A DNA stretch of 50,476 nt from a virus (IMGVR_UViG_3300003635_000005:1-50476); one strand, 5' to 3'. Positions 1 to 50,476 are shown, numbered from the stretch's first letter. Translations and numbers: made by a program. Notes: generated by a model from the sequence alone, not told the origin.

Positions 1-99
1 CACGTTTGACCTCCCGGACGGATCCGAGAGCCGCGAGTATCCCGCGGGCACGTGGTTTATGGGTGTCCAATTCACGGACGAGGCGTGGGACCGTATCAA
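1..99. repeat. Exact 99-bp copy of the contig end (circularisation overlap)
   Basis: 1-99 is identical to 50378-50476 and falls inside a continuous ORF; 99 is a common assembler k-mer size. Confidence 0.95.
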
Positions 100-931
100 A
101 TCCGGTGACTTGACCGGGTTTAGCATATACGGTGAGGCCGAAAACACTCCCGTTGCGGAGATCCTCGGCCTTAGCGAGTCCGCCAAAGAGGTGGACCGCT
201 CCGGTGCCGCCGAGGTGACGCTTGCCAAAGATGACGAGGGCACCGACAAGACAAACATGGAGGACACCAGCAAGCAACTCTCCCCGGACGTGCTTGCCTC
301 GGTGGCCGCCGAGTTTGAGACCTTTCTTGAGGAGACCGGAGCCGACGAGGAGGACGCCAGCATGGCGGACTTTCTTGAGTGGGCCGAGGACTCTCAAGAG
401 GAGGACGAGGACGAGGAGGACACCGAGGAGGACGGCACGGACGAGGACGAGGACAACGAGGACGAGGAGACAAGCATGAGCGACAACGACAACGACAACG
501 AAAGCAAGGAGGAGGAGGCCAGCGAGGCCGAGACCTCCAACGAGACCGAGGACGAGAGCACGGAGGATATGCTCAAGTCCATCAAGAGCACCGTGGAGGA
601 CAACAACGAGGCCGTCAAGTCGGTCAAGAGCCGCGTGGACACTCTTGAGGAGCGCGTTGAGGATCTTGAGAGCAAGTCCGCCGACGAGACCGAGGACGGC
701 ACGGAGGAGACCGCCGAGGCCAGCGAGGCCGAGGCCGAAAAGACCGAGGAGGATCTCACCGAGGCCGCCGAGGAGGCCGTCAAGTCCATCCTCGGGCTTG
801 ATGACCTCCCCGATGACCCCGAGGAGCGGCAAGAGGTTGTCCGCAAGGGTCTCGTGGAGGCCGAGGACGGTGCGGAGGAGGTCCAGACAATCGGTTTCAC
901 CGAGGAGGACATTGAGGGGGCAATCCAATGA
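1..931 (+). CDS. 3' part of prohead protease/scaffold (continues from 49785 across the join)
   Basis: In frame with 49785-50476; W..IKSG.LTGFSI.G motif of XkdF-like phage serine proteases, then an acidic coiled-coil region; directly upstream of MCP. Confidence 0.85.
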   Translation, partial: TFDLPDGSESREYPAGTWFMGVQFTDEAWDRIKSGDLTGFSIYGEAENTPVAEILGLSESAKEVDRSGAAEVTLAKDDEGTDKTNMEDTSKQLSPDVLASVAAEFETFLEETGADEEDASMADFLEWAEDSQEEDEDEEDTEEDGTDEDEDNEDEETSMSDNDNDNESKEEEASEAETSNETEDESTEDMLKSIKSTVEDNNEAVKSVKSRVDTLEERVEDLESKSADETEDGTEETAEASEAEAEKTEEDLTEAAEEAVKSILGLDDLPDDPEERQEVVRKGLVEAEDGAEEVQTIGFTEEDIEGAIQ

Positions 932-2127
932 GCGTTGCACGCAATCACAAGAGCGGAGTTGTAAAGAGCGCCGGTGCTGGCGGAGAAATCAACAACCGTG
1001 AGGCGCAAGTGGCGCACCGCCGGTGTTTCCACAACCTCATGGACGAGGTGCAAAAGGGTGCTGGCCTCCCCGGAGACCAAGTGCCCTATTGGGATCCGAT
1101 GGGATTCCTCAACTCCCGTGGTGAGGCCCTTGACCTCAAGACGCCTCTTTTCAAGAAGTATCAAGAGGCGTTTGAGACCTTCAACCGTATGCAACGGGAG
1201 GGTCACGCGGTCAAGGACGCCGCCGAGGAGGTGAGCAAGCAAATCGGCACCACGTCCTACTCCATGCCGATTTTCTTCACCCCGGACGTTTTCATCACCG
1301 ACGAGGAGGACACTCCTCTTGCGGACATGATGGCCCGGACGGCGGTGCAAGAAAACCAAATCAAGGTGGACGAGATCACCGAGACCGGCAACGCCGCCTC
1401 GTTTGCGGAGCCGAGTGGCGGCGGTGAGACGTGGCCGGAAAATGACGACACCACGGCCAACCTCACGTATGACGTGGTGAGTTACGGACGGCAAAACTCC
1501 GTCACGGACTTTCTCCAACTCTCAGCCAGCACGCTCCGGTCTCACCGGGCACTCACCGAGGAGCAACAAGTCCGTGCAATCCGGCAATATGAGGAGGCAC
1601 AACTCATTGTCGGCAAGGGCAACGTGGACACCGGCGTGACGGCCAATGACGCCAGCGGGTTTGACGGCCTCACGGATCTTGCGGCCAGCGAGGGCAACAC
1701 CACGGACGCCTCGGGGAGCACAATCTCCATTGATGACGTGCGCCGGCAAATCGAGAGCCTCCGGCGCAACGGCACCGCACGTGACAACATCCTCCACGTG
1801 ACGGACCACAAGACTTTCCGTGACCTCCATACGGATCTCACGGACTTTACCCGGTATGAGAGTCCGGGGAGCGAGTTGGACTTTGGGTTTGAGACGCTCA
1901 TGATTGACGGCACTCCGGTCATGGAGAGCCACGGATCTCCCTACGTTGACGGGGAGCGTCTCTTTACCTCGTTTGACGCCTCGGCGCACTACATGGGTAT
2001 GTTGCAAGACGTGACCATGCACCCGCTGGCGCGTGACTCTCCGCAAGAGCAATTCGCAACGGACGCTTACGGCACGCTCGTGAGTGAAAGCCCCTCGCGT
2101 GTTGAGGTCACGCACAACCTCGCATAG
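928..2127 (+). CDS. Major capsid protein (HK97 fold)
   Basis: 399 aa, follows protease/scaffold; F.GL motif and C-terminal pattern typical of HK97-like MCPs. Confidence 0.85.
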   Translation: MSVARNHKSGVVKSAGAGGEINNREAQVAHRRCFHNLMDEVQKGAGLPGDQVPYWDPMGFLNSRGEALDLKTPLFKKYQEAFETFNRMQREGHAVKDAAEEVSKQIGTTSYSMPIFFTPDVFITDEEDTPLADMMARTAVQENQIKVDEITETGNAASFAEPSGGGETWPENDDTTANLTYDVVSYGRQNSVTDFLQLSASTLRSHRALTEEQQVRAIRQYEEAQLIVGKGNVDTGVTANDASGFDGLTDLAASEGNTTDASGSTISIDDVRRQIESLRRNGTARDNILHVTDHKTFRDLHTDLTDFTRYESPGSELDFGFETLMIDGTPVMESHGSPYVDGERLFTSFDASAHYMGMLQDVTMHPLARDSPQEQFATDAYGTLVSESPSRVEVTHNLA

Positions 2128-2139
2128 AGGATCTCACTC

Positions 2140-2403
2140 ATGACCAACGCAATCAACTCGGTGTCCGCAATCCCCAACCTTGACGCCGAGGTGTATGTGA
2201 CCACGGTGACGCTTGACGCCGGGAGCGCCACCCTCACTTACACCGACGTGGACGGGATTGACGAGGCTCTCGGCGTTGAGCCGTTTGTCTTTGTCACCGG
2301 ACCCACCGGCGGGGAGAGCGTCACCAGCAAGGGAGCGAGTCAAGCGACAATCAACGGAGACACCACCGATGACGTGGAGTGTCTCCTCGTGGTGCCGCGG
2401 TAA
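2140..2403 (+). CDS. Small beta-rich virion protein (possible head decoration)
   Basis: 87 aa directly after MCP; T/V-rich. Confidence 0.5.
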   Translation: MTNAINSVSAIPNLDAEVYVTTVTLDAGSATLTYTDVDGIDEALGVEPFVFVTGPTGGESVTSKGASQATINGDTTDDVECLLVVPR

Positions 2404-2447
2404 GGCACCCGAGGCTCTTTAGCCAACCCCGGCTTTTTCTTGCGTGC

Positions 2448-2972
2448 ATGAGCGACATTGAGGACGCACCAGCACCCCGCGAGATTGGAGACGGTCTTGA
2501 GGTGCGGTGCCCGGAGTGCGGCGGAGAGCCAAACTATCAACCGGACGAGGCGCTTGAGGTGCAAGAGCGGCTCCAATCAAACGGGTATCTCCACAACGAC
2601 ATTAACATCAAATGCACGGAGTGCGGGCACTCGTGGCCGCATGGCGTGCCTCGTGGAGAGTGGGACGGGTATGAGGATCTTGAGTGTGGAGCGTGCGGTC
2701 ACGAGACCATGTTGGTCCACCGGGTGCGGCTTTCGGATCCGCCGGGAGACGGTGAGGGTGAGGTGACGCTCCACCTCAAGTGCCCGGAGTGCTACAAGTT
2801 TGACCGGACGGCCCGCAAGATGGACCGCAACGGTGTCTCGCTGGTGGGATACCCGCAACTCACCGGAGAGATTGATTCAACGGTCAACCCGTATGGGTGG
2901 CTCCCGGATAGGCACGGGCAACCGGAGCGTGCCGAGGGTGGCCTTGAGGAGCGGCCAGCGGACGAGGGCTAA
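2448..2972 (+). CDS. Multi-CxxC zinc-finger protein
   Basis: CPEC, CTEC, CGAC, CPEC; ATG ~30 nt after a CTCTTTA TATA-like box, consistent with a leaderless transcript. Confidence 0.7.
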   Translation: MSDIEDAPAPREIGDGLEVRCPECGGEPNYQPDEALEVQERLQSNGYLHNDINIKCTECGHSWPHGVPRGEWDGYEDLECGACGHETMLVHRVRLSDPPGDGEGEVTLHLKCPECYKFDRTARKMDRNGVSLVGYPQLTGEIDSTVNPYGWLPDRHGQPERAEGGLEERPADEG

Positions 2973-2977
2973 CCGGG

Positions 2978-3658: not shown

Positions 3659-3682
3659 CCCGGCCAGCGGCTCCTTTTCGGT

Positions 3683-3715: not shown

Positions 3716-3719
3716 TCTC

Positions 3720-4457: not shown

Positions 4458-4459
4458 CC

Positions 4460-5481: not shown

Positions 5482-5526
5482 GCTTGCCATAAAGGGGGGT
5501 GTTTTGAGTATATAAGGAGTTGCTAC

Positions 5527-5584: not shown

Positions 5585-6598
5585 ATGGCGGATCCATACA
5601 AGAGCGAGGACACACAATTGGCCGTGGGCACGGAGGACACTCAAGGCACCGCCGTTGCACCCACGCGGGTTTTCGGCAAGGTGGCGGAGGACGCCACCCC
5701 GCCGGACCCCGAGGTGGCATGGGAGCCAATTAGGGTCATCGGCGGAGACCGTGAGGTTTTCCAAATGCACGAGGGCCAGCACGAGTATCAAGGCGGAGAT
5801 ATACCCGTCATCCTCATTGACGGTGCGCCGCTGGCCTATGCGTTTGGGAGCGAGACCGTCAACGCGGACGAGGATCTTGACGGTGGGAGCGAGACGGGCA
5901 CCACCACCCACATACTCACGCCGAAAATGGACGGCAAGCCGCCGTCTCAAACGATTGAGGCGGTGTATTACGGACGTGGTGGCGGCACCGACTTTGTGAG
6001 GACTTTCCCCGGCGGCACCGTCAACGAGTGCGAGATCTCCACCAACAATGATGACGAGTTGACGGCCTCACTCTCATATTGGGCCATGGGAGTGACGCCG
6101 GGCACCTCCCCAACCGGATCCATCACGGTGCCCGACCGCAACCCGTGGCTCTTTTCGGACGCCGCAAGTCAACTCTCGCTCTTTGGCACGTCCTTTGCCC
6201 GGTTTGTCTCGTTTACCTATACGCTCTCCAACAACCTTGAGGAGGGCCGGTATATCGCACCGGATAGTGACCACCCGAGTGGAGACGCCAAAGATCCGTT
6301 TGAGATAACGTATGGCAACGCGGGCCACGAGTTGTCCGCCACCATTGCGGTGGAGGATAACGCTCTCTATACGGAGTTGGTCAACGGCACCGCTGGTGGT
6401 TTCACCGCGGTGATTGAGTTTGAGCGGCCCAACGGTGACAACCTCCGTATCACCCTCACCGGGTGCCAAATCACCTCCGCTCCTCACGACATACCGGCGG
6501 ACGCCAGCAAGATTGAGGTGGAGGTCTCAATCACCGTCGAGTCCGCGGAGATCCGCGTTGAAGATAGCAACTCCGCGGGCACGGGATACCTCGCATAA
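5585..6598 (+). CDS. Major tail tube protein
   Basis: E.T.GTAV.P N-terminus typical of siphovirus tube proteins; followed by chaperone and tape measure. Confidence 0.8.
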   Translation: MADPYKSEDTQLAVGTEDTQGTAVAPTRVFGKVAEDATPPDPEVAWEPIRVIGGDREVFQMHEGQHEYQGGDIPVILIDGAPLAYAFGSETVNADEDLDGGSETGTTTHILTPKMDGKPPSQTIEAVYYGRGGGTDFVRTFPGGTVNECEISTNNDDELTASLSYWAMGVTPGTSPTGSITVPDRNPWLFSDAASQLSLFGTSFARFVSFTYTLSNNLEEGRYIAPDSDHPSGDAKDPFEITYGNAGHELSATIAVEDNALYTELVNGTAGGFTAVIEFERPNGDNLRITLTGCQITSAPHDIPADASKIEVEVSITVESAEIRVEDSNSAGTGYLA

Positions 6599-21933: not shown

Positions 21934-22226
21934 GCGCCGAGAGCGAGACCGTGCCCGAGGACACCGACGAGTCCGACGAGGTGCCGGCGTGCGAGACCAC
22001 GCTCATGGCAAGCGAGTGGGAGACCAAAGACGCCGCGGTTTTCCCACCGGGATACCCGCGGCTTTGCCCGCACGAGGAGTGCTTTGGCCAGCACGTGCCG
22101 GACGAGAGTTGGGCCGAGGACGGCACCGCGGCGTTTGACCACGCCGAGGTCACGGACACTCTCGTGCGGGCCAGCAAGTCAAGCACCTCCCGCCGTATGC
22201 ACCTCCCCGAGGTGGACCACTCGTGA
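21930..22226 (+). CDS. Hypothetical protein
   Basis: ATGA overlap; acidic, Cys-containing. Confidence 0.6.
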   Translation: MSAESETVPEDTDESDEVPACETTLMASEWETKDAAVFPPGYPRLCPHEECFGQHVPDESWAEDGTAAFDHAEVTDTLVRASKSSTSRRMHLPEVDHS

Positions 22227-22465
22227 GGTCACGCAAGACCGACGAGGACAAAGAGGACGAGGACCGCGGGCCTTACACCCCGCCAGCACGCCGGAGGCCG
22301 CTCTATACGGGCACGTCCACCCGATACACTCCGCCACGCCGCGGGCCGAGAGTGTGGTTGTGGATCCTCGGCCTCCTCGTGTTTGTCATCCTCGTGCTGG
22401 TGGCCATATGGATTGGCTCCATGAGAGCGGACGCATGGTGGGAGTGGCTCCGGTGGTTGGCATGA
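22223..22465 (+). CDS. Small membrane protein
   Basis: GTGA overlap; one strongly hydrophobic helix. Confidence 0.6.
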   Translation: MRSRKTDEDKEDEDRGPYTPPARRRPLYTGTSTRYTPPRRGPRVWLWILGLLVFVILVLVAIWIGSMRADAWWEWLRWLA

Positions 22466-23367
22466 GTCTTGACCACCTTGAGGAGATCTATGAGGCGTTG
22501 CCCGAGTCCGTGGCGGGCCGTATCGGCACGTTTGCCGAGGCTTACAAGTCCACGCTCGTGGACATGGAGTGGTCCGTCAAGCCGTATGGTGACGCCTCAA
22601 GCGGGCCTCCCGCTGGTGGCCTCACCCTCGGCAACCTCAATCCGTGCGTCCACCTCACGGTGACGTGGGAGGCCGAGGAGCGTGCGTTGGTCTTTGACGA
22701 GGCCGGGGAGTTTGAGGACACCCTCGGTGCAATCAATCGCACCAGCATAACGCTCAACGGCAACCCGCCACCCGAGGCGGCCCGAGACAACAACACCACC
22801 CTCACCGAGTGGGGGCCGGAGGATCCGGGAGCCGGCAACGCACGCGGCACGTTTGTGGTGCCGGTGTATGACCGGGATAAGGACTTTCGGCACGCTGGTG
22901 AGCAACTTGAGCACGCCACGCACCACGAGGTCACGGACAAGGGCAACCACAAGGGAGTGCGGTATATGCTCCTCCGCCGGTGGGTGCCCACGCCGGAGGA
23001 CTTTGACCTTGACACTCGGCTTGAGTGGTGGAGTGGATACGTGGTGATGGGCCGAGGAGACCACGAGGAGTGGACGGCTTACAACCTCCCTCCCACCGTG
23101 GGCAACCCCGGTGTCAACGTGCCCTCGCTGGCCTATCCCAACCGGGAGCACGCCGGAGACATGCGCACCCGAGAGTTTGGAGACACTCACGGGTGGATTG
23201 GGTGGGACTCGGCCAAAGGCGGAGACCTCACCCACAAGAGAGCACTCCGCAAGACGCACCTCCTTTGCACGGCGGTGCGTGAGTTGTGGGAGGATCTCGG
23301 CGTTGAGCCGAGTGAGGTGTATGCCGAGGCCAGCAAGGAGGTGCCCAAATGCCTATCCGCGACTTGA
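22462..23367 (+). CDS. Hypothetical protein
   Basis: ATGA overlap with the upstream stop; 301 aa. Confidence 0.65.
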   Translation: MSLDHLEEIYEALPESVAGRIGTFAEAYKSTLVDMEWSVKPYGDASSGPPAGGLTLGNLNPCVHLTVTWEAEERALVFDEAGEFEDTLGAINRTSITLNGNPPPEAARDNNTTLTEWGPEDPGAGNARGTFVVPVYDRDKDFRHAGEQLEHATHHEVTDKGNHKGVRYMLLRRWVPTPEDFDLDTRLEWWSGYVVMGRGDHEEWTAYNLPPTVGNPGVNVPSLAYPNREHAGDMRTREFGDTHGWIGWDSAKGGDLTHKRALRKTHLLCTAVRELWEDLGVEPSEVYAEASKEVPKCLSAT

Positions 23368-27913: not shown

Positions 27914-29265
27914 ATGCAAGCGAAAGACGCAATTGACGCCATAGAGGACGGCAACGAGACGGTCAAGGAGATTGCCGAGTATCTTGACCTCCACAAAAAC
28001 AACGTGGGCAAGCAACTCAAGCGCATAGCGGAGGATCCGGGCAACCCCGTGGACCGGGAGCCGGAGGGCCGTGGTCATCGGTATTACCTCAACGAGGATC
28101 TCACCAGCGGAGACGCCGCCGAGGCAACGCCGGTTGCTGGTGGCCGAGACTATGATTGGGAGGAGTATCTCCCGGACCCCAACCGCGTGCCCGCATATGA
28201 GCCGTTTAGGGACGAGTGGGACGGTATCAATGACGAGATTGACTTTGTGCAAGAGTGGTTGGAGGACCACCCGGACCCCGAGAGTTGGGAGGACGCCGCA
28301 TGGGAGCCGCGGCTCCCGCACTTCAAATTGGAGGGGCCAACCGGGAGCGCAAAGACCACGCTTTTCAAATCGCTGGCGTTGGAGCGTGGGTGGCCCGTCT
28401 TTACCCTACAAGTGGCCTATCAAATGGACAAGTCCGACATTGTGGGGAGTGCCCGGCTCCGTGCTGGTGAGACCGTATGGCAAGACGAGGTGCTTGTCAA
28501 AACCGGCCCGTGGTCCTAATCGTTGACGAGGCCAACCGTGCGCCGCCGAGAGCAAAGAGTGCGCTCTTTGAGTCTCTTGACTTTCGGTGCGCCATTGAGT
28601 TGAAGGGACGAGGCGGTGAGGTGATTGAGGGCAACCCCTTCAACCTCATAGTTGGTGCCACTATCAACAAGGGGCCGGGATACCACGTTGAGCCGATTGA
28701 CAAGGCCGAAAAACGCCGATACGGCAACACGTGGGAGGTTGGATACCTCGGCATGGCTCCCGAAAACGAGGACGGCGTGAGTGGCAAGGAGCGTGAGGCG
28801 GATCTCATTGCCAGCAAGTCACCGGCCAGCAAGCGCCTCGCGGAGTTAATGGTTGAGGCGGCCAACGACGTCCGTGAGCGGGCCGAGGACCCCACGAGTG
28901 ACGTGCGGAGTGGCCTCCCGGTGGACTATACAATCTCGTGGGCACAAACGGCGGCGGCACGCCACCACGCGGGCCGTGATAATCCCGTCATCAAGGCCGG
29001 GCAAGCCGCGGTCATTGACTCATACTATGACGAGAGACAAGAGGAGGCCGACGAGGTGTTTAGCGTGCTCACCTCGCACCTTGACGGCGTGCCGTTTGAG
29101 CGTGACGAGTTGAGCGAGTGGGCCGGCGGAGCCGAGGAGAGAGTCACGTGCATGAATTGCGATTATACGGACAGCGTGGACGAGGCCGAGAGTCAAGGCG
29201 TGCTTGATTGGATGGAGTGCCCGGAGTGCAACCATGACGTTAAGCGAGTGGGTGGAGGTGAGTAA
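27914..29265 (+). CDS. MoxR/CbbQ-type AAA+ ATPase with N-terminal wHTH and C-terminal zinc ribbon; frame broken at ~28500
   Basis: Walker A GPTGSAKT in 27914-28519; Walker B VLIVDEANRA, ATIN and D.A..RR in the -1 frame to 29265. Confidence 0.85.
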
Positions 29266-35237: not shown

Positions 35238-35310
35238 ACTCCCGTGGTGTAGTGGCCAATCATACGTGCCTTTGGAGCACGTGACCCCGATTCAAATTCG
35301 GGCGGGAGGA
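35238..35310 (+). tRNA. tRNA-Gln(UUG) with non-canonical T-arm
   Basis: 73-nt cloverleaf: CTCCCG/CGGGAG acceptor, CGTGC-CTTTGGA-GCACG anticodon arm (TTG 35272-35274), CCCGA-TTCAAAT-TCGGG T-arm; TTTAAC box at 35208. Confidence 0.9.
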
Positions 35311-35424
35311 CTTTAGCACTCTCCGCCGTTTATACAAAGCCCTTGAAAGCGTGGAGCACCTCGCTCGTGCCCGCTCGTGCCGTCTCGCTTAGTTGCTCCG
35401 GTGTCCTTAGCACTATCACGCACG

Positions 35425-40614: not shown

Positions 40615-40916
40615 CCGACGAGTTGGGTGCGGAGTATCGGTATCTATGCACCACGTGCCACGAGATCCTTGACCCACGCGAGGTCCGCCAGCATACCGGG
40701 GAGTGCGCCGCCGTCTCCACGCTCTCCCGGTTGGATATGTGGCTCACGGACAACGTGGACTCGTGCCCGGAGTGCGAGGCCAGCGTGGAGGAGATCCGTC
40801 CGCCGCACCACGCTCATTGGATACCGTGGCACGAGGACGGAGCCGAGAGCGTGCTCCTCAAGCCGTGCGGGCACGAGGTGGACACCGAGGAGGTCATCAA
40901 TGAGCACGGAGAGTGA
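40611..40916 (+). CDS. Zinc-finger protein
   Basis: CTTC..H...C, CPEC..PCGH. Confidence 0.6.
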   Translation: MTDELGAEYRYLCTTCHEILDPREVRQHTGECAAVSTLSRLDMWLTDNVDSCPECEASVEEIRPPHHAHWIPWHEDGAESVLLKPCGHEVDTEEVINEHGE

Positions 40917-42571
40917 CCAACCGGAGGATAGGGGCCTCCGCAACGCCACGGTGTATGGCTTTGAGCCGCTTGAGTGGCAAGACCCCTTTATCCACACAAC
41001 GGCCCGCGAGGTGTTGGGGAGCGGCGCTTTCGGATCCGGTAAGAGCCGGGCACTCAACGAGCGTGGCGTGCTCTTGAGCATAGCCTATCCGGGCAATATC
41101 GGCCTCCTCACCCGTAACACGCTCAAGGCACTCCGCAACACCACGTTGGAAAACCTCCGCAACGAGGTGCTCCCTCGCTCGTGGATTATCCCGGAGTTGA
41201 CCAACCAGCAAAAGCAAGTCATTGCAATCCAATCCCCGCTTTACCCGGCCTCATATTGCCCGGAGTGTGGCCACGAGAGTGAGCGGCGCACGCACGAGGA
41301 GACGGTGGAGTGTCCGGCGTGCCACGAGGCGCTCCTTGAGGCGGTGCCGGCCTCACTAATCTATTATGACGGCCTCCAAACCACCGATGACGCCGACATA
41401 CCGGAGAATATCCTAAGCCTTGAGTTGGGGTGGATTGGCGTGGACGAGGCAAAGGACATTGAGGAGAGCGCGTGGAAAGCCCTCAACGGACGGCTCCGGT
41501 TGGAGCGCCTCAACAATCCGTATGTGCCGGAGTTGCCCTTTCGCACCATTTTCGGCACCACCAACCCGGCGGATCCTAACCATTGGCTCCACAAGCGATT
41601 TTATGAGGACGGCGTGGGGGAGTATTACGAAAGCGAGACCACGGACAACCTCGCAAATCTCCCCGATGACTATTTGCAAACGCTCAAGGAGCAATATGGT
41701 GAGGACACCAGCGAGGCGCTCCGGTATATCCGCGGCAAGTGGACGGGATACTCCGGCCTCGTGTTTGACGAGTTTAAGGACGAGATCCACCTCGTTGAGC
41801 CGTTGGACGTGCCGGAGATCCTCGGTGACGGGTGGACAGGAGGAGTTAGAGGCCAACGAGCAAGAGGTGAGTGAGCAAGTCGGGGTGCCCAACAAGCCGG
41901 GCCAATACACTCCGGCCCGAGTGTATCCTCCCGAGGACGCCAGCATACTCATGGCGATTGATTGGGGATATAGGCCGGACCCACTCGTGGTCCAATGGTG
42001 GGCACTCACCGAGACCCACGGCTTTGTGCTATATCGGGAGTGGTTCAAGAGCCGAGTGCTCCCCGATGACGCCGCACGGGAGTGCATGGATCTCATGGAG
42101 CCGTATGAGTGCAACAACGTGGTCCGGTGCTATGCGGACCATGATAGTGGAGACCGTGAGAGTTGGCTCAAGGGTGCCCGCGAGTATGTCAACGAGGGAG
42201 TGGAGGAGGGCCGGTGGGAGGGAGACACCAGCAAGCCGGATTGGCGGCGGGTGCAAACCACCGCCGCCGCAAAGGACCGGGAGAAAGGCGTGCAAGAGGT
42301 CAAGCGCCGCATGAGGCCGGACAAGCACAACCGGGCCGAGGTCCACCTCGTCAAGGGAGCGCGTGCTCACCAAATTGACCGGCAACTCAACTCCGCGGAC
42401 AAGCCGGGCCGCACCCTCGCGGAGATCCGCGGGTATGGGTATGAGGACGAGGATAGTGACAACCCGCAAGACGGCAATGACCACGGTGTTGACACCATGC
42501 GGTATTGCATTTACTCCCACCGTAAGAAGGGACGCACCAGCGGATCCGGCTCCTCCGTCATCAAGAGTTAG
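40900..42571 (+). CDS. terL: Terminase large subunit with zinc-ribbon insertion; frame broken at ~41835
   Basis: Walker A G.GAFGSGKS, Walker B IGVDEA and TTNP in the first frame; nuclease AIDWG and DHGVD..RY in the +1 frame. Confidence 0.9.
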
Positions 42572-42574
42572 TGC

Positions 42575-42643
42575 AACCTCGCACTATCTCACTCTCCGGT
42601 ATCTTTATGGTCTCCCCTACTCAAGGGATTGTATGGTGAGCCA
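42575..42643 (+). repeat. Cassette promoter/leader repeat, copy 4
   Basis: AACCTCGCACTATCTCAC.CTCCGGTATCTTTATGGTCTCCCCTACTCAAGG...GTATGGTGAGCCA. Confidence 0.95.
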
Positions 42644-44057
42644 CAACACCAACGCGGACGAGGAGGAGACGCTTGAGGAGCCAATCAAGATCCGGTGGAC
42701 GGGCAAGGCCCGTGACCGCCTCGGCGGGTGGGCACTTGACTTTGCCAACGCCGACGAGGACAACGGCATGGAGGCTTACGTGCGTGCGGACTCACGGCAA
42801 AAGACCAACGTGGTGCTTGAGACCGTGGAGGAGGCCGAGGCCGTTGCTGGTTTCATGAATAAGGTCATCGGTGAGGGTGGAGACTATGGCCGCACGTGGG
42901 TCAACGGAGCCGTGGACAACGCGGGCCAGCGAGTCCGCCGCGAGATTGTTGACGCCATGGCGGAGCGAGGGTTTGAGGTCTCCAACCTCACCAGCGTTTA
43001 CGGCCTCGCGTTTGAGGAGGCCGAGGAGCCGGACGTGGACGTGGAGGAGGGAGACACCGTGATTGACGAGGCCCATGACGTGACGGGCAACGTCACCGGC
43101 GTGGACGGCAACACCGTCCACGTGGAGTTTACCAACGGCGTGACCTCCGCCACCACCGTCTCGGGCCTCCTTGACGAGAGCAACCCGTGGACGCACGTGC
43201 CCGCCGAGGCGGACGAGGAGCCGGAGATCCGCACGGACGGCGGCGTGGCCACCGAGGAGGAGCGAGAGCCGGACGAGGCGGACGTGGACGTGCCGTGCGA
43301 GGAGGGAGACCGCGTGGCCGTTGAATACCACTCCGCTCACGTGGACCGCCGCAAGATCCTCGTGGGGAGCGTCAAGGAGGTGGTGCTCAAGGGAGCGCCG
43401 CGAGACGGAGAGTGGGTGGCCATGCTGGCGGAGATCTATGTCCGGCCCGAGGAGGGCCACCGCAATGACCGGAGTGAGCATTACACCGAGACCACGCGGA
43501 GCGCCATGCGCCGCGTGACGTGGGAGATTGAGGAGGACGAGGACCGCGGGTGGCACTCCGTGGAGGCCCGCAACGGCCTCCGGTGGAATAGGGTCAACGA
43601 GACCGGCACCCGGACGGAGATCTCCGTGCTGGCCGAGGACGAGGAGCCGCCGCACCCGGACAACGGCGTGGTGCTGGCGGTGGGCCTCCGGTGTCATCGG
43701 TGCAACGGCACCTCGTGCAAGGAGGTCACGGACCCCGAGACGGAGCCGCTCACGGGCACGCGGTGGGCTTGCCCTCATTGCCACGAGATTGATGACGAGA
43801 GCGGTGCCGAGATTGGCCAGCAATATGAGATCCTCGGGTGCAAGCCGGTCTCGCACGTGGACACCTCGTGGTCTCTCGCGGAGCACGAGGCGTTGGAGTG
43901 GGCCGCCTCACCAACGCGGTGGAGGGCTTTCACCGAGACGGTGCTCAAGGGCCGCAAGGCCACGGCCTATGCCGATGACGTGGACGTGACGCCGGGCACG
44001 GTTTACCGGCACGTGCATGACGCTCGTGAGGTGCTCAAGGGTGGTCTCAATGAGTGA
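42633..44057 (+). CDS. Cassette cargo protein, multi-domain (two SH3-like, zinc ribbon, C-terminal HTH)
   Basis: Starts MVSH in repeat copy 4; GDTV/GDRV modules; CHRC..CPHC; A...DV.PGTV.RHV..AR HTH-like tail. Confidence 0.75.
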   Translation: MVSHNTNADEEETLEEPIKIRWTGKARDRLGGWALDFANADEDNGMEAYVRADSRQKTNVVLETVEEAEAVAGFMNKVIGEGGDYGRTWVNGAVDNAGQRVRREIVDAMAERGFEVSNLTSVYGLAFEEAEEPDVDVEEGDTVIDEAHDVTGNVTGVDGNTVHVEFTNGVTSATTVSGLLDESNPWTHVPAEADEEPEIRTDGGVATEEEREPDEADVDVPCEEGDRVAVEYHSAHVDRRKILVGSVKEVVLKGAPRDGEWVAMLAEIYVRPEEGHRNDRSEHYTETTRSAMRRVTWEIEEDEDRGWHSVEARNGLRWNRVNETGTRTEISVLAEDEEPPHPDNGVVLAVGLRCHRCNGTSCKEVTDPETEPLTGTRWACPHCHEIDDESGAEIGQQYEILGCKPVSHVDTSWSLAEHEALEWAASPTRWRAFTETVLKGRKATAYADDVDVTPGTVYRHVHDAREVLKGGLNE

Positions 44058-44316
44058 GCACGTCACCGCGGAGGTCCGCGAGGACATTAGTGCGGCCCTC
44101 GGCCCGCTCATGGAGGAGGACGTGGAGGAGTTGCGGTTGGAGGATCTTGAGCACGCCATGGAGGCCATGGACGCCGTGCGCTCCCGCGGCGTGAGCACGG
44201 ACAATGGCCTCCTCGTCAAGGCGGCGGAGCACGTGCAAGAGCAAGTCCGCGAGGAGTTGGTGCGCCGCCAGCGTGAGCGGCACGAGCGTGACGCCGAGGC
44301 GGGCCGCCAGCGGTAA
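44050..44316 (+). CDS. Hypothetical helical protein (cassette cargo)
   Basis: Overlapping start. Confidence 0.6.
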   Translation: MSEHVTAEVREDISAALGPLMEEDVEELRLEDLEHAMEAMDAVRSRGVSTDNGLLVKAAEHVQEQVREELVRRQRERHERDAEAGRQR

Positions 44317-44330
44317 GGCCGGACTAACAC

Positions 44331-44346
44331 TTACGTGAGAGCGCCG
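44331..44346 (+). promoter_or_regulatory. Restart promoter core TTACGTGAGAGCGCCG
   Basis: Same 12-mer core as L1/L2, 26 nt before ATG 44361. Confidence 0.7.
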
Positions 44347-44360
44347 TCTCGGTGCTCTCA

Positions 44361-46034
44361 ATGAGGGTCAACGACATTGCGGAGTTTTCGGACACAATAG
44401 ACTCGGGAGGGGAGACCACGCTCACCGTGGAGACCGAGGAGCGCAACGCCACCATGGTCATGCTCTCGGTGGAGGCCGCTGGCGGCGGGAGTGCTGTTTT
44501 CCACGGCCTTGAGTGGGAGTATCGGCCCACGGACGCCGCCGGGTGGAGGTACTACAAGGCCGAGGACGCAAGTGATGACCGCACCCACATTGAGCCGGCG
44601 CTCCCGCGGCAAATGAGAGTCACCGTGACCAACGTGACGGACGCCGCCACCACGTTTGACATACGGCTCTCCTCCATGGGTCCGCAAGGCAACAACGCCG
44701 CCGGCTCCATGGGTATGCCGCCGCTGGCGGACGGGGAGGTAAAGGTGAGTGACGTGAGCGCGTTGCTCTCAACGGTGGATCTCAATGACGGCGTGCGGAC
44801 CACGCCGGTCAAGAGCGAGTTTAACCTCACGCCGGCTCCGCTCTCGGTGTTTCGGGATTGGTGGCCAGCACAAAAGGACAAGGTGGAGGGCACCACCACT
44901 CCCGGCTCCGCGAGTTACAACGGAGACACCTATGTGGTGGAGACGGACGCCGTGACCAACGGGAGATCTTTCCTTGAGACGGCCAGCACGGGCCGATACC
45001 GGAGCGGATCCGTTGGGATTGCTGGCATATATGTGGAGTTTGACGGCCCGCCGGTGGGCTTTGCGGAGTGGGGATACCTCCGGGAGACGGACACCAACGC
45101 ACTCAAGTTTAGGTATGAGAGTGACGGCTCACTCTCGTTTGTCATCACGAGGGCCGGCGTGGATCTCGTCATACCGCAATCCGCGTGGGCACCGAGTGGA
45201 GAGCAAGAGGTCACGGACGCCAATGGAGATCCGGTGGGTGTTGTCATCGGGATTGACGGCATGGACGGCAACGGCCCGAGTGGCGTGACGCTCAACCCGG
45301 ACAACGGGTATGTGTATCGGGTGGACTTTGCGTGGTATGGCGGCGGCGCAATCGCTCCTCACATTGTGGAGATTGGTCCAACGGGCCAGCAACGAGCGTG
45401 GCCAATCTTTGCCTATATGCCTCGTGGCCAAACGAGTATCTCCCAACCCAATCAACCCGTGAGTGCGGTCCTCAACAATGACGGCACGGCCACGGCGGAC
45501 TCGCTCAAGGTTGCTGGCCGGCAATTCTCCACCGCTGGTGACTTTGAGGACGAGGTGCGAGAGACCACGCACCTCCGTGAGGACTTTGACATACAAACCA
45601 CGTGGGAGCCGTGGCTTTTCGTCCGGCGCAAGGACACCATTGACGGATCCGCCACGGCGGAGGGCATATCTTTTGACCTCGGGCCGCTGGCGTGGGCCAT
45701 TGACCAAACCATTGCGTTTGAGGCACGGGTTGGAGTGGTGCCGGACGGATCTCCCGATTGGCAAGCACCCTCCCGGACCTCCCCGGACGAGACGGCGGTG
45801 GAGGTGGCGGAGACGGTGGACGGTGGCAACCCGCTGGCCGTCACGGACAACGGAGAAAAGTATGGCGGCAACCTTGCCGGCTCCGCTCAAGGCGGCAACA
45901 AGACGCTCACGGACCAAAGCCGGGAGTTTGGCGCTCCTTTCCCGAGGAGATCCGTCAACGCAATCTTTGCAAAGGCGGTTGATACGGCCACGTCCGGCTC
46001 CTCGGTCAACACGACAATCCCGGAGGGGTGGTAA
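44361..46034 (+). CDS. Large beta-rich putative virion protein
   Basis: 557 aa; RY.SG..EWGY..DG.GPSG.TL......Y..DF.WYG.G motifs; restart-class promoter. Confidence 0.55.
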   Translation: MRVNDIAEFSDTIDSGGETTLTVETEERNATMVMLSVEAAGGGSAVFHGLEWEYRPTDAAGWRYYKAEDASDDRTHIEPALPRQMRVTVTNVTDAATTFDIRLSSMGPQGNNAAGSMGMPPLADGEVKVSDVSALLSTVDLNDGVRTTPVKSEFNLTPAPLSVFRDWWPAQKDKVEGTTTPGSASYNGDTYVVETDAVTNGRSFLETASTGRYRSGSVGIAGIYVEFDGPPVGFAEWGYLRETDTNALKFRYESDGSLSFVITRAGVDLVIPQSAWAPSGEQEVTDANGDPVGVVIGIDGMDGNGPSGVTLNPDNGYVYRVDFAWYGGGAIAPHIVEIGPTGQQRAWPIFAYMPRGQTSISQPNQPVSAVLNNDGTATADSLKVAGRQFSTAGDFEDEVRETTHLREDFDIQTTWEPWLFVRRKDTIDGSATAEGISFDLGPLAWAIDQTIAFEARVGVVPDGSPDWQAPSRTSPDETAVEVAETVDGGNPLAVTDNGEKYGGNLAGSAQGGNKTLTDQSREFGAPFPRRSVNAIFAKAVDTATSGSSVNTTIPEGW

Positions 46035-48543: not shown

Positions 48544-48884
48544 GCCGCACGCCGCTCAAGGGCACGGACTATGTGTATGAGGAGCCGCCGTGGTGGGCCG
48601 TGGGTCCGCTCAAGGCGGTCTCCATGGACCTCACGTATGACGAGGCGCACGCGGCGCTCCTCGGCCTCGTGGGCATACCGTTGGCCCTCGCGTGGGCCGC
48701 TGGCCTCACCACCGAGGTGGCCGGCCTCGTGGTGGCGCTCGTGGCTCTCGCGTTTGGCCTCAAGCGGGCACCGGACACCGCACCGATTGCCCGGCGGATT
48801 GTCCGCAAGGAGCCGTGGTATTTCACCACGGTGCTGGTGGCCGCACTCGTGCTCTCCCTCGGCACCGTGGAGGTGCTGGCATGA
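48540..48884 (+). CDS. Multi-pass membrane protein
   Basis: About 3 hydrophobic helices; GTGA overlap. Confidence 0.65.
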   Translation: MSRTPLKGTDYVYEEPPWWAVGPLKAVSMDLTYDEAHAALLGLVGIPLALAWAAGLTTEVAGLVVALVALAFGLKRAPDTAPIARRIVRKEPWYFTTVLVAALVLSLGTVEVLA

Positions 48885-49162
48885 GCGGATCCGACGAGGA
48901 GGAGGCACCCGAGGAGGTGGTGGACGGCGGCGGCACCACCACGGCCACGTATCGGTTTAAGTATCTCTCCACCATTGTCACGGTCCTCGTCACGCTTGCT
49001 TACTCGGGCCTCGTCATCGGGCAAGCGTTTGGATACACCGCCAGCACGGTGGACGGCGGCACGTGGGCCACGTTTTCGCTGGCGTTTGTGGCCGTGATTG
49101 CTTACTCCGTGGGAGTGGACACACTCAAGGCCGCCGCGGAGGCACGTGGAGGTAACTCATGA
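48881..49162 (+). CDS. Two-helix membrane protein
   Basis: ATGA overlap; 2 TM segments. Confidence 0.65.
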   Translation: MSGSDEEEAPEEVVDGGGTTTATYRFKYLSTIVTVLVTLAYSGLVIGQAFGYTASTVDGGTWATFSLAFVAVIAYSVGVDTLKAAAEARGGNS

Positions 49163-49437
49163 AAGACACCAGCGAGATCCTCAAGGAGGCCGGCGGGTAT
49201 GAGGGCATAGTCAAGGGCATGGACGAGGATCTTGCCCGGACTAAACGGCAACGTGAGGTGGAGAGTTGCTTTGGCAAGAGCCTCCCGGCGGTGCTCCGGG
49301 AGTTGCACGGCAAGGAGGACTCAAAGGCGGCCATGCTCCGCCGTATCAACGAGGCGTTGGAGGCCAACAACTTTGACGGCTCACTCTCTCGGCCCACGCT
49401 TTACTCGTGGCTTGACACCGTGGAGTTGGACGCTTAG
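49159..49437 (+). CDS. Small HTH-like protein
   Basis: C-terminal LSRPTLYSWL recognition-helix pattern. Confidence 0.55.
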   Translation: MKDTSEILKEAGGYEGIVKGMDEDLARTKRQREVESCFGKSLPAVLRELHGKEDSKAAMLRRINEALEANNFDGSLSRPTLYSWLDTVELDA

Positions 49438-49474
49438 GCCAACCTTCTTAATGGAGTGCCGTCTTGCCTTACTT

Positions 49475-49660
49475 GCGTCTCCCACCGGAGACGTATGCCG
49501 GTCTCGGGCCGGTTGTCAGAGGCACCACGTCTCCCCACTCGGGCACGTGGTCTCCCCCACCGCCACCGACGAGGGCCAGCACGCGGGGTGCTAAAGCCGG
49601 CTTTTCTCCGGCAAACACCTCCGCACGCTCCACCCTTTCCCCTACCCACTCCCTTCATGC
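49475..49660 (+). ncRNA. Second candidate structured RNA
   Basis: CTTAAT box ~28 nt upstream; five consecutive hairpins; pyrimidine tract at the end; no credible ORF. Confidence 0.4.
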
Positions 49661-49784
49661 GATTAGTGGAGACCTCCGTGCTCCTTAGTGCGAGAGTGTT
49701 AAGCGATTGTGTAAACCGTTTAGTCACGGCCAGCGGCCCGCTTTTTACATCACATTAAGTAAGGAGGCCCTTGAGGAGGCTTGT

Positions 49785-50476
49785 GTGGCAAGCGAGACCC
49801 ACAAGGACGAGGAGGTAAGCAAGCCACTCCCCGGTGGCTCCTTTGAGGGGTGCGTCCGGCGTTTTGGACAAGATCCGGGGATTGATGACCCCGAGGCGTT
49901 TTGCGGTTGGTTGGAGCAACAAGCGAAAGAGGGCAACGAGGCCGTCCTCAATTGGGACGCCGAGGAGGATACCGTTGAGGATCTCATTGAGGCCCTCAAT
50001 GACCCCGAGGCGGAGAAAGTGCTCCAAAACCTCACGGTCACATACGTGAGCGGCGTTGAAAATCCGGCTCAAGACTCGCAATGGGTCATGGCCAAAGACG
50101 CCGATGACCGCGGAGCGGATTGGGGTGTCACCGCACCCCTTGTGGTCAAGGAGGGAGATCTCCCGATGACCGACGAGGACGGTGAGGAGGAGCAAAAGGC
50201 GTGGGCACCCGTCTTAATCCCCAACGAGACCGACAAGCAAGGTGACGTTATCCCGGTCAAGGAGATTGAGACGGCGGCCCATGACTTTCTTGCCGAGTAT
50301 CGGCAAGTGGATACGGACCATGACCTCCTCGCTGGCAAAGGCACGCCAATTGAGAGTTGGACACTCAAGACGGACACCACGTTTGACCTCCCGGACGGAT
50401 CCGAGAGCCGCGAGTATCCCGCGGGCACGTGGTTTATGGGTGTCCAATTCACGGACGAGGCGTGGGACCGTATCAA
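49785..50476 (+). CDS. 5' part of prohead protease/scaffold (XkdF-like); full ORF ~507 aa across the join
   Basis: GTG ~29 nt after TTAAGTA; VS.VE.PA, VLIP...D.QGD.....IE.AAH.F......H....ESW motifs; in frame with 59-931. Confidence 0.85.
   Translation, partial: MASETHKDEEVSKPLPGGSFEGCVRRFGQDPGIDDPEAFCGWLEQQAKEGNEAVLNWDAEEDTVEDLIEALNDPEAEKVLQNLTVTYVSGVENPAQDSQWVMAKDADDRGADWGVTAPLVVKEGDLPMTDEDGEEEQKAWAPVLIPNETDKQGDVIPVKEIETAAHDFLAEYRQVDTDHDLLAGKGTPIESWTLKTDTTFDLPDGSESREYPAGTWFMGVQFTDEAWDRI
50378..50476. repeat. End overlap identical to 1-99
   Basis: Direct comparison. Confidence 0.95.

What the first reader, a model, noticed from the sequence alone, without database searches (positions are those of the whole stretch)
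1..50377. Genome-wide motif avoidance that rewrites codon usage
Seen by manual reading: CAG/CTG occurs almost only as CCAGC/GCTGG. TCGA is rare (I noticed it near 1751, 6537, 11430 and 16145), although it is normally very common in acidic high-GC halophile genes; here CTT GAG, GTT GAC, ATT GAG and TTT GAG are used instead. I did not notice AGCT or CTAG. GTAC, GAAC/GTTC and GGCGA/TCGCC are scarce, and GATC is nearly always RGATCY. All 18 Gln codons in the MCP gene read CAA. Palindrome avoidance in haloviruses is established, but near-loss of a trinucleotide outside one context is extreme. Inference: escape from several restriction-modification, BREX or phosphorothioate-type defences in a virus with no recognisable methyltransferase. 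The avoided set is a footprint of host defence specificities.
Basis: partly seen in the sequence, partly recalled or inferred. Interest (0 to 1): 0.7.

Follow-up and report, generated by a model that had tools for sequence, protein, structure and literature searches.

The report
Halovirus genome purged of short DNA words
A complete 50-kb virus of salt-loving archaea has removed dozens of short DNA words from its genome, rewriting its codon usage to do so and carrying its own tRNA for one replacement codon, most likely to escape many host DNA-cutting defences.

Summary
TCGA occurs 4 times, at the positions named. AGCT and CTAG occur 0 times and GTAC twice. 224 of 242 CAG/CTG lie in CCAGC/GCTGG, and 185 of 186 GATC are RGATCY.

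The depletion is real:
- It survives a shuffle that keeps amino acids and codon usage.
- It holds in non-coding DNA.
- It is absent from about 110 sampled haloarchaeal chromosomes.

At least 37 words are avoided. Testable 6-mer palindromes are hit 13 of 27 times, against 28 of 1202 non-palindromes. Eight of 12 published haloarchaeal methylation motifs are missing. No methyltransferase was found.

Best reading: recognition sites of many host defence systems were purged by selection, in a virus without its own methylase. The near-loss of CAG/CTG is probably the sum of several overlapping 4-6-mers.

New points:
- 16 of 41 uncultured relatives also lack CAG/CTG.
- A sister clade lacks GAG/CTC instead of GAA/TTC.
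- Such viruses carry tRNAs for the replacement codons; here it is tRNA-Gln(UUG).

The host and the actual enzymes remain unknown.

The parts
1..50377 (.). One unit-length genome over which at least 37 short words are avoided. These are CAG/CTG outside RCCAGCR; GAAB/VTTC; AGCT, CTAG, GTAC, TCGA; YGATC/GATCR; GGGCG, GGCGA, CCAAG, ACACG, CGACC, AGATG; nine of the 6-mer palindromes; and six asymmetric 6-7-mers.
   Evidence: maximal-order Markov; codon-preserving shuffle; non-coding DNA. The 89 residual sites are spread evenly, with no island.
1..99 (+). Direct terminal repeat, first copy. The second copy is at 50378-50476.
   Evidence: One search finds an exact 99-base repeat. One search reports the record as having direct terminal repeats and 100% completeness.
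928..2127 (+). Major capsid protein gene. All 18 Gln codons are CAA, and 27 of 31 Glu codons are GAG.
   Evidence: phrog_25898, E 8e-176; 64% identity to HCTV-2 and HHTV-2; codon counts.
35238..35311 (+). tRNA-Gln with anticodon UUG, which reads CAA. CAA replaced CAG in 92% of Gln positions. The gene contains the genome's only GGGCG, at 35300.
   Evidence: ARAGORN; Rfam tRNA, 51.6 bits; fold; codon usage; GGGCG position.
1751..1754 (.). One of the four residual TCGA sites; the others are at 6537, 11430 and 16145. This one is missing from the 97%-identical contig L006, so it is probably a young mutation.
1374..1378 (+). The only GATC that is not RGATCY (GATCA). L006 has it too.
40627..41874 (+). 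Large terminase subunit, N-terminal part, in frame 1. Similarity to the HCTV-2 and HHTV-2 terminases ends near 41835-41838.
41846..42571 (+). Large terminase subunit, C-terminal part, in a different frame. The genome's only CAGG (41837) lies at the frame junction.

Best explanation
The window is the whole genome of a tailed virus of haloarchaea, related to the Saparoviridae isolates HCTV-2 and HHTV-2. It has no DNA methyltransferase of its own. Its DNA has been purged by selection of the short double-stranded words that many sequence-specific host defences recognise. These defences are mainly Type II restriction-modification systems (palindromes and interrupted palindromes). Systems with asymmetric sites (Type IIS/IIG/III, BREX-like, Type I half-sites) also contribute.

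Each site lost raises the chance that incoming unmodified DNA escapes cleavage, so even words with hundreds of copies are driven towards zero. Removal is done by synonymous and context-dependent codon choice. This rewrites codon usage: Gln CAA 92%, Leu CTG 3%, Phe TTT 78%, Tyr TAT 65%, Glu GAA 2%. A virus-encoded tRNA-Gln(UUG) partly pays the translational cost.

The near-loss of CAG/CTG and GAA/TTC is most likely the union of several overlapping 4-6-mer targets. RCCAGCR, RGATCY and GAAA/TTTC are the contexts that none of these targets covers.

Shown: the depletion itself, its action at DNA level, its independence of amino-acid and codon composition, its absence from sampled host chromosomes, signs of continuing purifying selection, and the match between tRNAs and codons. 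Inferred: that defence nucleases are the selective agent, and which ones.
For: 1. Size and robustness. 37 words are flagged by maximal-order Markov expectation; 3 of 3 simulated order-1 control sequences gave none. 33 of 34 tested words fall below all 300 codon-preserving shuffles.
2. The effect is on DNA, not on translation. CAG is depleted in all three frames, and the complementary word is lost as well. In 4150 non-coding bases CAG/CTG is 11 against 150 expected, GAA/TTC is 20 against 99, and AGCT, CTAG, TCGA and GTAC are 0 against 14.7 each.
3. Restriction signature. 13 of 27 testable 6-mer palindromes have O/E <= 0.1, against 28 of 1202 non-palindromes (odds ratio 39, p = 1e-13). Interrupted palindromes are also at zero copies against 16.7 expected from base composition alone: GACNNNGTC and CCANNNNNTGG.
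4. Eight of 12 published haloarchaeal methylated motifs are absent or nearly so: CTAG, CTCCAG, TCGACGG, HGCWGCK, GTCGAGG, GRAGAAG, CATTC and CAG(N6)TCGC.
5. It is not host background. In about 58 haloarchaeal 8-kb loci and 55 further genomes (13-20 kb each), CAG O/E is at least 0.47, GAA at least 1.22, and TCGA at least 1.85 with a median of 4.2.
6. No methyltransferase was found, whereas HCTV-2 is annotated with three.
7. Selection continues. 45% of all synonymous point changes would create an avoided word. Yet 107 differences from contig L006 have produced only 12 private avoided words.
8. The cultured relatives HCTV-2 and HHTV-2 show 30 and 21 avoided words by the same method. Hardycor1 is published with a similar interpretation (PMC7911831, passages and Tables 2-3).
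Against: - No restriction enzyme, host or methylome is linked to any avoided word. The match to published motifs rests on only 12 motifs, several of which share the avoided cores CAG, TCGA and GAAG.
- Reviews state that avoidance is common for Type II sites but usually not for Type I or III (PMC8410138, passages). About half of the words here are asymmetric.
- RCCAGCR and RGATCY are over-represented, not merely tolerated: 222 against 44.5 and 184 against 54 in shuffles, and about threefold in non-coding DNA (11 against about 3.5 each, my arithmetic). The non-coding excess is not explained.
- Six independent 4-mer specificities all centred on CAG is not parsimonious.
Confidence: 0.65

Rival explanations
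1. A single agent has a three-base core specificity: CWG here and in clade B, GAG/CTC in clade B, GAA/TTC here. It would be a frequent-cutting nuclease or nickase of the host, or a related family of them. RCCAGCR, GAAA and RGATCY would be sequence contexts that the enzyme cuts poorly.
For: - CAG/CTG O/E is at most 0.15 in the window and in 16 of 41 related loci. GAG/CTC O/E is at most 0.12 in 14 of 38.
- In L011 and L028 CAG is 0.02 in all contexts.
- Enzymes that recognise three bases exist: Nt.CviPII (CCD) and Nt.CviQII (RAG) (PMC3017599, passages).
- All six 4-mers around CAG are lost to a similar degree.
Against: - The surviving contexts differ between lineages: CCAGC here, WCAGW in clade B, WCAGY in G002.
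- GAAC, GAAG and GAAT are depleted to different degrees (0.01, 0.05, 0.19), as separate targets would be.
- No such enzyme is reported for archaea in the papers I read.
Confidence: 0.15
2. The virus, or a co-infecting element, makes frequent-cutting nucleases that shred the host chromosome. The viral genome protects itself by lacking the sites instead of methylating them.
For: - No methyltransferase was found.
- Several of the words most over-represented in haloarchaeal chromosomes are among the most depleted here: TCGA 4.2x, CGAC 2.8x, CGAA 2.2x, GAAC 2.1x.
- Archaeal tailed viruses with their own restriction enzymes, possibly used against host DNA, are discussed in PMC8651126 (passages).
Against: - No window gene is shared only by the CAG-avoiding genomes.
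- Apart from Hjc and the terminase there is no nuclease family hit, only a faint Endonuclease_7 match at E 0.09.
- Overall the correlation with host word use is weakly positive (0.19), not negative.
- The palindrome bias and the match to host methylation motifs point to host systems.
Confidence: 0.08
3. The pattern comes from context-specific mutation, such as deamination of methylated cytosines or biased repair, and not from selection.
For: The commonest replacements, CAA/TTG and TCAA/TTGA, are the C-to-T products of CAG/CTG and TCGA. They are the most enriched words: O/E 2.0 for CAA/TTG and 3.6 for TCAA/TTGA.
Against: - Counts of 0 against 112-173 expected are far beyond known mutational depletion.
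- Leu CTG was mostly replaced by CTC, a transversion: CTC 57%, TTG 16%.
- Clade B loses CAG without any gain in CAA/TTG.
- 6-mer palindromes and interrupted palindromes are lost while their sub-words stay common.
- New avoided words are about fourfold rarer than random substitution predicts.
Confidence: 0.04
4. The cause is selection on translation (the tRNA pool, or escape from anticodon nucleases) or avoidance of the CRISPR recognition trinucleotide TTC.
For: - Codon usage is strongly shifted and a matching tRNA is present.
- TTC/GAA is depleted. TTC is the type I-B CRISPR recognition motif of Haloarcula; this is recalled, not checked.
Against: - Depletion holds in all frames, on both complementary words and in non-coding DNA.
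- Codons of the same decoding class behave differently: TTC and TAC are avoided, but CAC, AAC and GAC are kept.
- TTTC/GAAA stays at O/E 0.74, and that word would still serve as a TTC recognition motif.
Confidence: 0.03
5. The pattern is an artefact of assembly, of sequencing modified DNA, or of a designed sequence.
For: Two genes (terminase and an AAA ATPase) are split between frames. Unique avoided words lie at or near the junctions, which suggests local sequence errors.
Against: - Independent contigs carry the same pattern: L006 at 97% nucleotide identity, L018 and L007.
- Proteins are intact and homologous to cultured viruses.
- The changes are synonymous and depend on context.
Confidence: 0.02

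Closest known systems
Motif avoidance in halovirus Hardycor1 and other haloviruses (PMC7911831: passages and Tables 2-3 read; PMC11431627: passages)
   Same: - AGCT and CTAG are absent.
- Many 6-mer palindromes are absent (22 in Hardycor1).
- A few non-palindromic 4-mers are strongly avoided: CAGC, CATC and CCAG in Hardycor1.
- The authors also read it as escape from restriction-modification.
   Different: - Here ten 4-mers and eleven 5-mers are lost, so whole trinucleotides nearly vanish and codon usage is inverted.
- CAGC and CCAG are the allowed contexts here, the opposite of Hardycor1.
- GATC is kept, but only as RGATCY.
- Hardycor1 carries a methylase gene; this virus has none recognisable.
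HCTV-2 and HHTV-2 (Saparoviridae), the nearest cultured relatives
   Same: - Capsid protein 64% identical, and the structural module is in the same gene order.
- They also lack AGCT, CTAG and many 6-mer palindromes: 30 and 21 avoided words.
   Different: - They have normal CAG, GAA, TCGA and GTAC, and no GATC at all.
- Their codon usage is typical of the hosts (Gln CAG 89-97%).
- HCTV-2 is annotated with three methyltransferases and HHTV-2 with a glucosyltransferase.
- They have no tRNA genes.
Restriction-site avoidance in prokaryotic viruses in general (review PMC8410138, passages; Rusinov 2018 and Gelfand & Koonin 1997 as cited there)
   Same: Synonymous removal of recognition sites, strongest for Type II palindromes and in lytic viruses.
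   Different: - Usually a handful of 4-6-mers. Here at least 37 words are avoided, and 45% of synonymous point changes are blocked.
- Many of the avoided words are asymmetric.
Codon-compensating tRNA genes of phages (PMC10264068 and PMC4032129, seen only in the search listing with the start of each abstract)
   Same: A virus-encoded tRNA reads a codon that the virus uses far more than its hosts' relatives do.
   Different: The codon mismatch here appears to be caused by avoidance of DNA words, not by a difference in base composition. Across relatives the set of tRNAs follows which trinucleotide was purged.
Chlorovirus frequent cutters Nt.CviPII (CCD) and Nt.CviQII (RAG) (PMC3017599, passages)
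   Same: They show that nucleases with three-base recognition exist in a virus-host setting.
   Different: They are eukaryotic-virus enzymes paired with methylases. No homologue was sought or found here, so this is an analogy only.

Membership tests
Restriction-site (recognition-word) avoidance by a prokaryotic virus | Words are significantly under-represented against composition, Markov and codon-preserving null models | tested here: met
   37 words flagged, and 33 of 34 tested fall below all 300 shuffles.
Restriction-site (recognition-word) avoidance by a prokaryotic virus | It acts on double-stranded DNA: both complementary words, all reading frames and non-coding DNA | tested here: met
Restriction-site (recognition-word) avoidance by a prokaryotic virus | Palindromes are over-represented among the avoided words | tested here: met
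   13 of 27 against 28 of 1202; several interrupted palindromes at zero copies.
Restriction-site (recognition-word) avoidance by a prokaryotic virus | The avoided words coincide with specificities known in the host group | tested here: inconclusive
   8 of 12 published haloarchaeal motifs are absent. The sample is small and the cores overlap. REBASE was not available.
Restriction-site (recognition-word) avoidance by a prokaryotic virus | Cognate nucleases are present in the actual host | not testable with these tools
   The host is unknown. No provirus was found. The viral tRNA matches host tRNAs at no more than 61 of 74 positions. The genome search found only low-complexity matches.
Codon-compensating viral tRNA | An intact tRNA gene whose anticodon reads a codon over-used by the virus | tested here: met
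   tRNA-Gln(UUG). CAA is 92% of Gln codons here, against 3-11% in HCTV-2 and HHTV-2.
Codon-compensating viral tRNA | The tRNA is expressed and improves translation | not testable with these tools
   No expression data were examined.
Escape from phosphorothioate (Dnd-Pbe) defence of haloarchaea | Loss of the GATC consensus that these systems modify (PMC6459918) | tested here: not met
   GATC is 185 against 173 expected; only its flanking bases are restricted. GAAC/GTTC, a bacterial Dnd motif mentioned in the same paper, is lost (4 against 357).
Escape from BREX | Loss of a 6-base asymmetric BREX motif; CTGGAG is reported for Haloterrigena | tested here: inconclusive
   CTCCAG/CTGGAG is 1 against 16-33, but it is contained in the general CTG loss.
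CRISPR recognition-motif avoidance (TTC; motif recalled, not checked) | Loss of every TTC/GAA whatever its flanks | tested here: not met
   TTTC/GAAA is kept at O/E 0.74, while GAAB is at 0.07.

The most novel reading that the evidence does not exclude
A large uncultured group of haloarchaeal tailed viruses is under pressure from DNA-targeting systems whose many specificities share tiny cores (CWG, GAG/CTC, GAA/TTC). The only durable escape is to delete the whole trinucleotide from the genome. That recoding then forces the viruses to import the matching tRNAs: Gln-UUG, Leu-UAA, Glu-UUC. The set of tRNA genes in such a virus would then record which defence cores it has fled. The hosts may hold an undescribed family of frequent-cutting or hypervariable nucleases.
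Probability: 0.3. Interest if true: 0.8.

Novelty: new variant of a known kind. Interest (0 to 1): 0.66.

Why it matters
Avoidance of restriction sites by haloviruses is already in print. This genome shows how far it can go:
- About 45% of all synonymous mutations are forbidden.
- Four amino acids have their codon preference inverted relative to sister viruses.
- Whole trinucleotides nearly disappear.

The link found here between the purged trinucleotide and the tRNA genes carried is new to me. It spans the window and six of the 17 related genomes examined. It would give a concrete, testable reason why some archaeal viruses acquire particular tRNAs. My three searches that touched on this found no paper describing CAG/CTG or GAG/CTC loss in haloviruses, or tRNA gain as its consequence.

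The avoided sets could also serve as fingerprints. They could match uncultured viruses to hosts once haloarchaeal methylomes are available.

Tried and rejected
- Host identification failed.
  - A capsid-profile scan of one genome per species found no provirus.
  - Host tRNA-Gln genes match the viral tRNA at no more than 61 of 74 ungapped positions.
  - A 20-kb DNA search of 401 Halobacteria genomes returned mostly low-complexity acidic-repeat matches (window 380-780). Only two candidates per genome were scored, so CRISPR spacers could not be seen. I did not repeat it for the rest of the genome.
Earlier findings were not open.
- I looked for a gene shared only by CAG-avoiding viruses, as a candidate self-nuclease. 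None was found among the 67 window ORFs in 17 genomes.
- An 'anti-host' word usage was rejected. Spearman correlation with host 4-mers is +0.19, low but not negative.
- An island of recently acquired DNA with normal word use was rejected. Residual sites are evenly spread.
- The idea that RCCAGCR is positively selected in coding DNA is largely explained away. Ser AGY is 61% where unconstrained and 72% (all AGC) in the RCC_R context. The roughly threefold excess in non-coding DNA stays unexplained.
- ESM Atlas on ORF 22084-23367 gave only scores below 0.9. I ran no structure predictions.
- I did not build sequences constrained to avoid the words as a null model. Only plain permutations were used.

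Full report
WHAT THE WINDOW IS. The window is a whole IMG/VR virus record of 50,476 bases with an exact 99-base direct terminal repeat. G+C is 61.5%. A mechanical set of 67 open reading frames, all on the + strand, covers 92% of it. PHROGs and Pfam were run on 62 of the 67 ORFs; the five shorter than 50 residues were left out. They identify a siphovirus structural module: capsid protease, major capsid protein, tail tube, chaperones, tape measure, baseplate, portal and terminase. They also identify an archaeal Hjc resolvase and an AAA/vWA pair. The capsid protein is 64% identical to those of Haloarcula viruses HCTV-2 and HHTV-2, family Saparoviridae, and most structural genes have homologues in both.

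THE OBSERVATION.
- TCGA occurs four times, at the positions named.
- AGCT and CTAG are absent. GTAC occurs twice.
- GAAC+GTTC occur four times and GGCGA+TCGCC five times.
- 134 of 149 CAG and 90 of 93 CTG lie in CCAGC/GCTGG.
- 185 of 186 GATC are RGATCY.

The context is tighter than reported. All 134 + strand CCAGC are RCCAGCR, and over both strands 222 of 224 are, with S preferred one base further out. GAA/TTC is also depleted as a trinucleotide (239 against 1184) and survives mainly as GAAA/TTTC.

A stepwise maximal-order Markov screen flags 37 avoided words:
- ten 4-mers;
- eleven 5-mers: GGGCG, GGCGA, CCAAG, ACACG, CGACC, AGATG, CGATC, TGATC and three CAG contexts;
- fifteen 6-mers, nine of them palindromes;
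- one 7-mer.

Three simulated order-1 control sequences gave none. Degenerate and interrupted palindromes are also missing: GRGCYC 0 against 32, CGRYCG 2 against 60. GACNNNGTC and CCANNNNNTGG are each 0 against 16.7 expected from base composition.

Neither is met.

First, I controlled for amino acids and codons. In 300 permutations of synonymous codons, which keep every protein and the already skewed codon usage, 33 of 34 tested words lie below the minimum of all shuffles. The exception is GGGATC. Examples: CAG/CTG 242 against 816, GAAB 63 against 544, TCGA 4 against 269, AGCT 0 against 123, GGCGA 5 against 195.

Second, I compared host background. About 58 haloarchaeal 8-kb loci and 13-20 kb from each of 55 further Halobacteria genomes never fall below O/E 0.47 for CAG, 1.22 for GAA, 1.85 for TCGA (median 4.2), 0.60 for GTAC, 1.17 for GAAC or 1.22 for GGCGA. 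Only CTAG (median 0.09) and CCAAG (0.30) are clearly depleted in chromosomes too, with AGCT weakly so (0.55). These are samples of the class. The true host is unknown.

DNA LEVEL, NOT TRANSLATION. CAG is depleted in all three frames, and its complement CTG, a different codon, is lost with it. The same holds for GAA and TTC. In the 4150 bases outside my ORFs:
- CAG/CTG is 11 against 150 expected, and all 11 are in RCCAGCR;
- GAA/TTC is 20 against 99;
- AGCT, CTAG, TCGA and GTAC are 0 against 14.7 each;
- all 11 GATC are RGATCY.

Codon choice depends on context. NTY codons before a GA-codon end in T in 340 of 343 cases, but in 460 of 1671 cases elsewhere. Ser AGC is used in 73 of 102 RCC_R contexts, in 4 of 326 cases after other C-ending codons, and in 218 of 560 cases after other codons.

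Global codon usage is inverted relative to HCTV-2:

| Codon | Window | HCTV-2 |
|---|---|---|
| Gln CAA | 92% | 3% |
| Leu CTG | 3% | 73% |
| Phe TTT | 78% | 2% |
| Tyr TAT | 65% | 3% |
| Glu GAA | 2% | 21% |

SIGNATURE OF RESTRICTION. I took 6-mers that contain no shorter avoided word and have a Markov expectation of at least 6. Of these, 13 of 27 palindromes but only 28 of 1202 non-palindromes have O/E at most 0.1 (odds ratio 39, p = 1e-13).

I collected twelve methylated motifs published for haloarchaea from four papers. I read passages of PMC10609329, PMC11001535 and PMC6606915, and the whole text of PMC8388548. Eight are absent or nearly absent here:
- CTAG: 0
- CTCCAG/CTGGAG: 1 against 16-33
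- TCGACGG: 1 against 10-20
- HGCWGCK: 0 against 36-119
- GTCGAGG: 0 against 10-34
- GRAGAAG: 0 against 12
- CATTC: 0 against 35-68
- CAG(N6)TCGC: 0 against 5-10

Four are not depleted: GATC, CCTTG, GDGCHC and CTCA(N6)TCG. Several of the eight share the cores CAG, TCGA or GAAG, so they are not independent.

No methyltransferase family matches any ORF. This covers Pfam and PHROGs on 62 ORFs, NCBIfam on 48 of 67 (14 more with clear structural hits were left out), and Pfam at E up to 0.5 on 18 unknown ORFs. HCTV-2 is annotated with three methyltransferases and HHTV-2 with a glucosyltransferase.

CONTINUING SELECTION. 45% of all 32,529 possible synonymous single-base changes would create one of the avoided words. 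Contig L006 is 96-97% identical over 3.9 kb and differs at 107 positions. Only 4 avoided words are private to it and 8 are private to the window, where about 45 would be expected from random synonymous change. The TCGA at 1751 is one of the private ones. The 89 residual sites are spread evenly, with no island. The only GGGCG lies inside the tRNA gene, where it cannot be removed synonymously.

RELATIVES. A capsid-based scan found 41 related IMG/VR loci. CAG/CTG O/E is at most 0.15 in 16 of them. The capsid tree has three groups.
- The window sits with L006, L018 and L007. All four are CAG-poor and GAA-poor.
- These four branch next to 13 loci that include HCTV-2 and HHTV-2 and have normal words.
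- A second group of 16 loci is almost free of CAG/CTG and, instead of GAA/TTC, of GAG/CTC (O/E 0.00-0.12 in 14 of them).

By the same Markov method, cultured HCTV-2 and HHTV-2 avoid 30 and 21 words, mostly 6-mer palindromes plus AGCT, CTAG and GATC. Extensive avoidance is therefore a family trait and is published for Hardycor1: three absent palindromic 4-mers, CAGC/CATC/CCAG strongly avoided, and 22 absent palindromic 6-mers (PMC7911831).

The surviving contexts of CAG differ by lineage: CCAGC here, WCAGW in the second group, WCAGY in G002. CAGC and CCAG are the avoided words in Hardycor1. For this reason I read the trinucleotide loss as the union of several overlapping 4-6-mer targets rather than one three-base target. 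I give the single-core alternative 0.15.

tRNAs. The window carries tRNA-Gln(UUG) at 35238-35311 (ARAGORN; Rfam 51.6 bits). It reads the CAA codon that replaced CAG. I fetched 15 related records in full and added both cultured genomes, giving 18 genomes with the window. Seven carry tRNAs for replacement codons:

| Genome | tRNAs for replacement codons |
|---|---|
| G008 | Glu(UUC), Leu(UAA), Gln(UUG) |
| G015 | Leu(UAA), Gln(UUG) |
| G002, G013, G014, G018 | Leu(UAA) |
| Window | Gln(UUG) |

All seven have CAG/CTG or GAG/CTC O/E at most 0.5. Their codon usage agrees: in the second group Glu GAA is 92-99%, Gln CAA 83-99% and Leu TTA 15-30%. The five other avoiders without such a tRNA are fragments, at most 62% complete. 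None of the six non-avoiders has one: G004, G005, G006, G021, HCTV-2 and HHTV-2. G006 has an unrelated tRNA-Arg(UCU). Seven of 12 against 0 of 6 gives a one-sided Fisher p of about 0.025 (my arithmetic). That figure ignores shared ancestry within the second group. The window's own case is phylogenetically separate from that group.

WHAT REMAINS UNEXPLAINED.
- The allowed contexts are over-represented: RCCAGCR 222 against 44.5 and RGATCY 184 against 54 in shuffles, or 5.2x and 4.3x by composition, against 1.3x and 1.1x in hosts. In non-coding DNA, 11 copies of each against about 3.5 expected is not explained. It leaves room for protective modification or a positive function of these sites.
- It is unclear why six 4-mers around CAG should all be targets.
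- It is unclear why sister clades purge GAA or GAG in a mutually exclusive way.
- No gene is shared only by CAG-avoiders. This argues against an inherited viral nuclease as the cause.

LITERATURE. I found halovirus motif avoidance described at the level of 4-mers and 6-mers. I found no description of CAG/CTG, GAG/CTC or GAA/TTC loss, nor of tRNA gain tied to it. Supplementary tables, such as the Hardycor1 restriction gene list and the methyltransferase table of PMC8651126, were closed and may bear on this.

VERDICT. The defence-escape interpretation is the best-supported one, though the agents are inferred and not identified. The phenomenon is a known kind in an unusually extreme form. It comes with a newly noticed translational consequence, the matching tRNA genes.

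Noticed in passing
window 40627-42571: The large terminase subunit is read in two frames. Similarity to the HCTV-2 and HHTV-2 terminases runs in frame 1 to about 41835 and continues in frame 2 from 41846 to 42568. The genome's only CAGG (41837) lies exactly at the junction. This could be an assembly error, a recent frameshift or programmed frameshifting.
   Followed up: partly
window 27914-29265: The AAA ATPase, a homologue of HHTV-2 gp10, is also split between two overlapping frames: 27914-28501 and 28399-29241. The genome's only AGACGA (28483) lies in the overlap.
   Followed up: partly
G008:C1:35158-35404 (record behind L027): Three adjacent tRNA genes, Glu(UUC), Leu(UAA) and Gln(UUG), in a relative that has lost GAG/CTC and CAG/CTG (O/E 0.02 and 0.03). 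Each reads a replacement codon.
   Followed up: yes
L046:4318-4399 (minus strand): ARAGORN reports a tRNA with anticodon CUA and labels it tRNA-Pyl. It may be an amber-suppressor-like tRNA in a related viral contig.
   Followed up: no
G002:C1:35678-35718: A 41-base stretch is 88% identical to the 5' half of the window's tRNA-Gln. It lies about 160 bases from a tRNA-Leu(UAA) gene, and ARAGORN calls no tRNA there. It may be a decayed or interrupted tRNA-Gln.
   Followed up: no
L042 / G018 (whole record, 45172 bases): This relative keeps CAG (O/E 0.70) but has lost GAG/CTC (0.01), GGCC (0 against 106) and AGCT, and AGC/GCT is at 0.15. The pattern resembles avoidance of RGCY as a class. 34 avoided words were flagged in 21 kb.
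   Followed up: partly
window 380-780: An acidic low-complexity coding stretch in the capsid-protease/scaffold gene gave weak DNA matches in 256 of 401 Halobacteria genomes. These swamped the search for host matches.
   Followed up: no
window 42572-46034: About 3.5 kb lies between the terminase and portal genes, which are adjacent in HCTV-2 and HHTV-2. It holds an ORF of unknown function (42363-44057 as called; its start overlaps the terminase end). It also holds a 560-residue homologue of a gene that follows the portal in the relatives.
   Followed up: no
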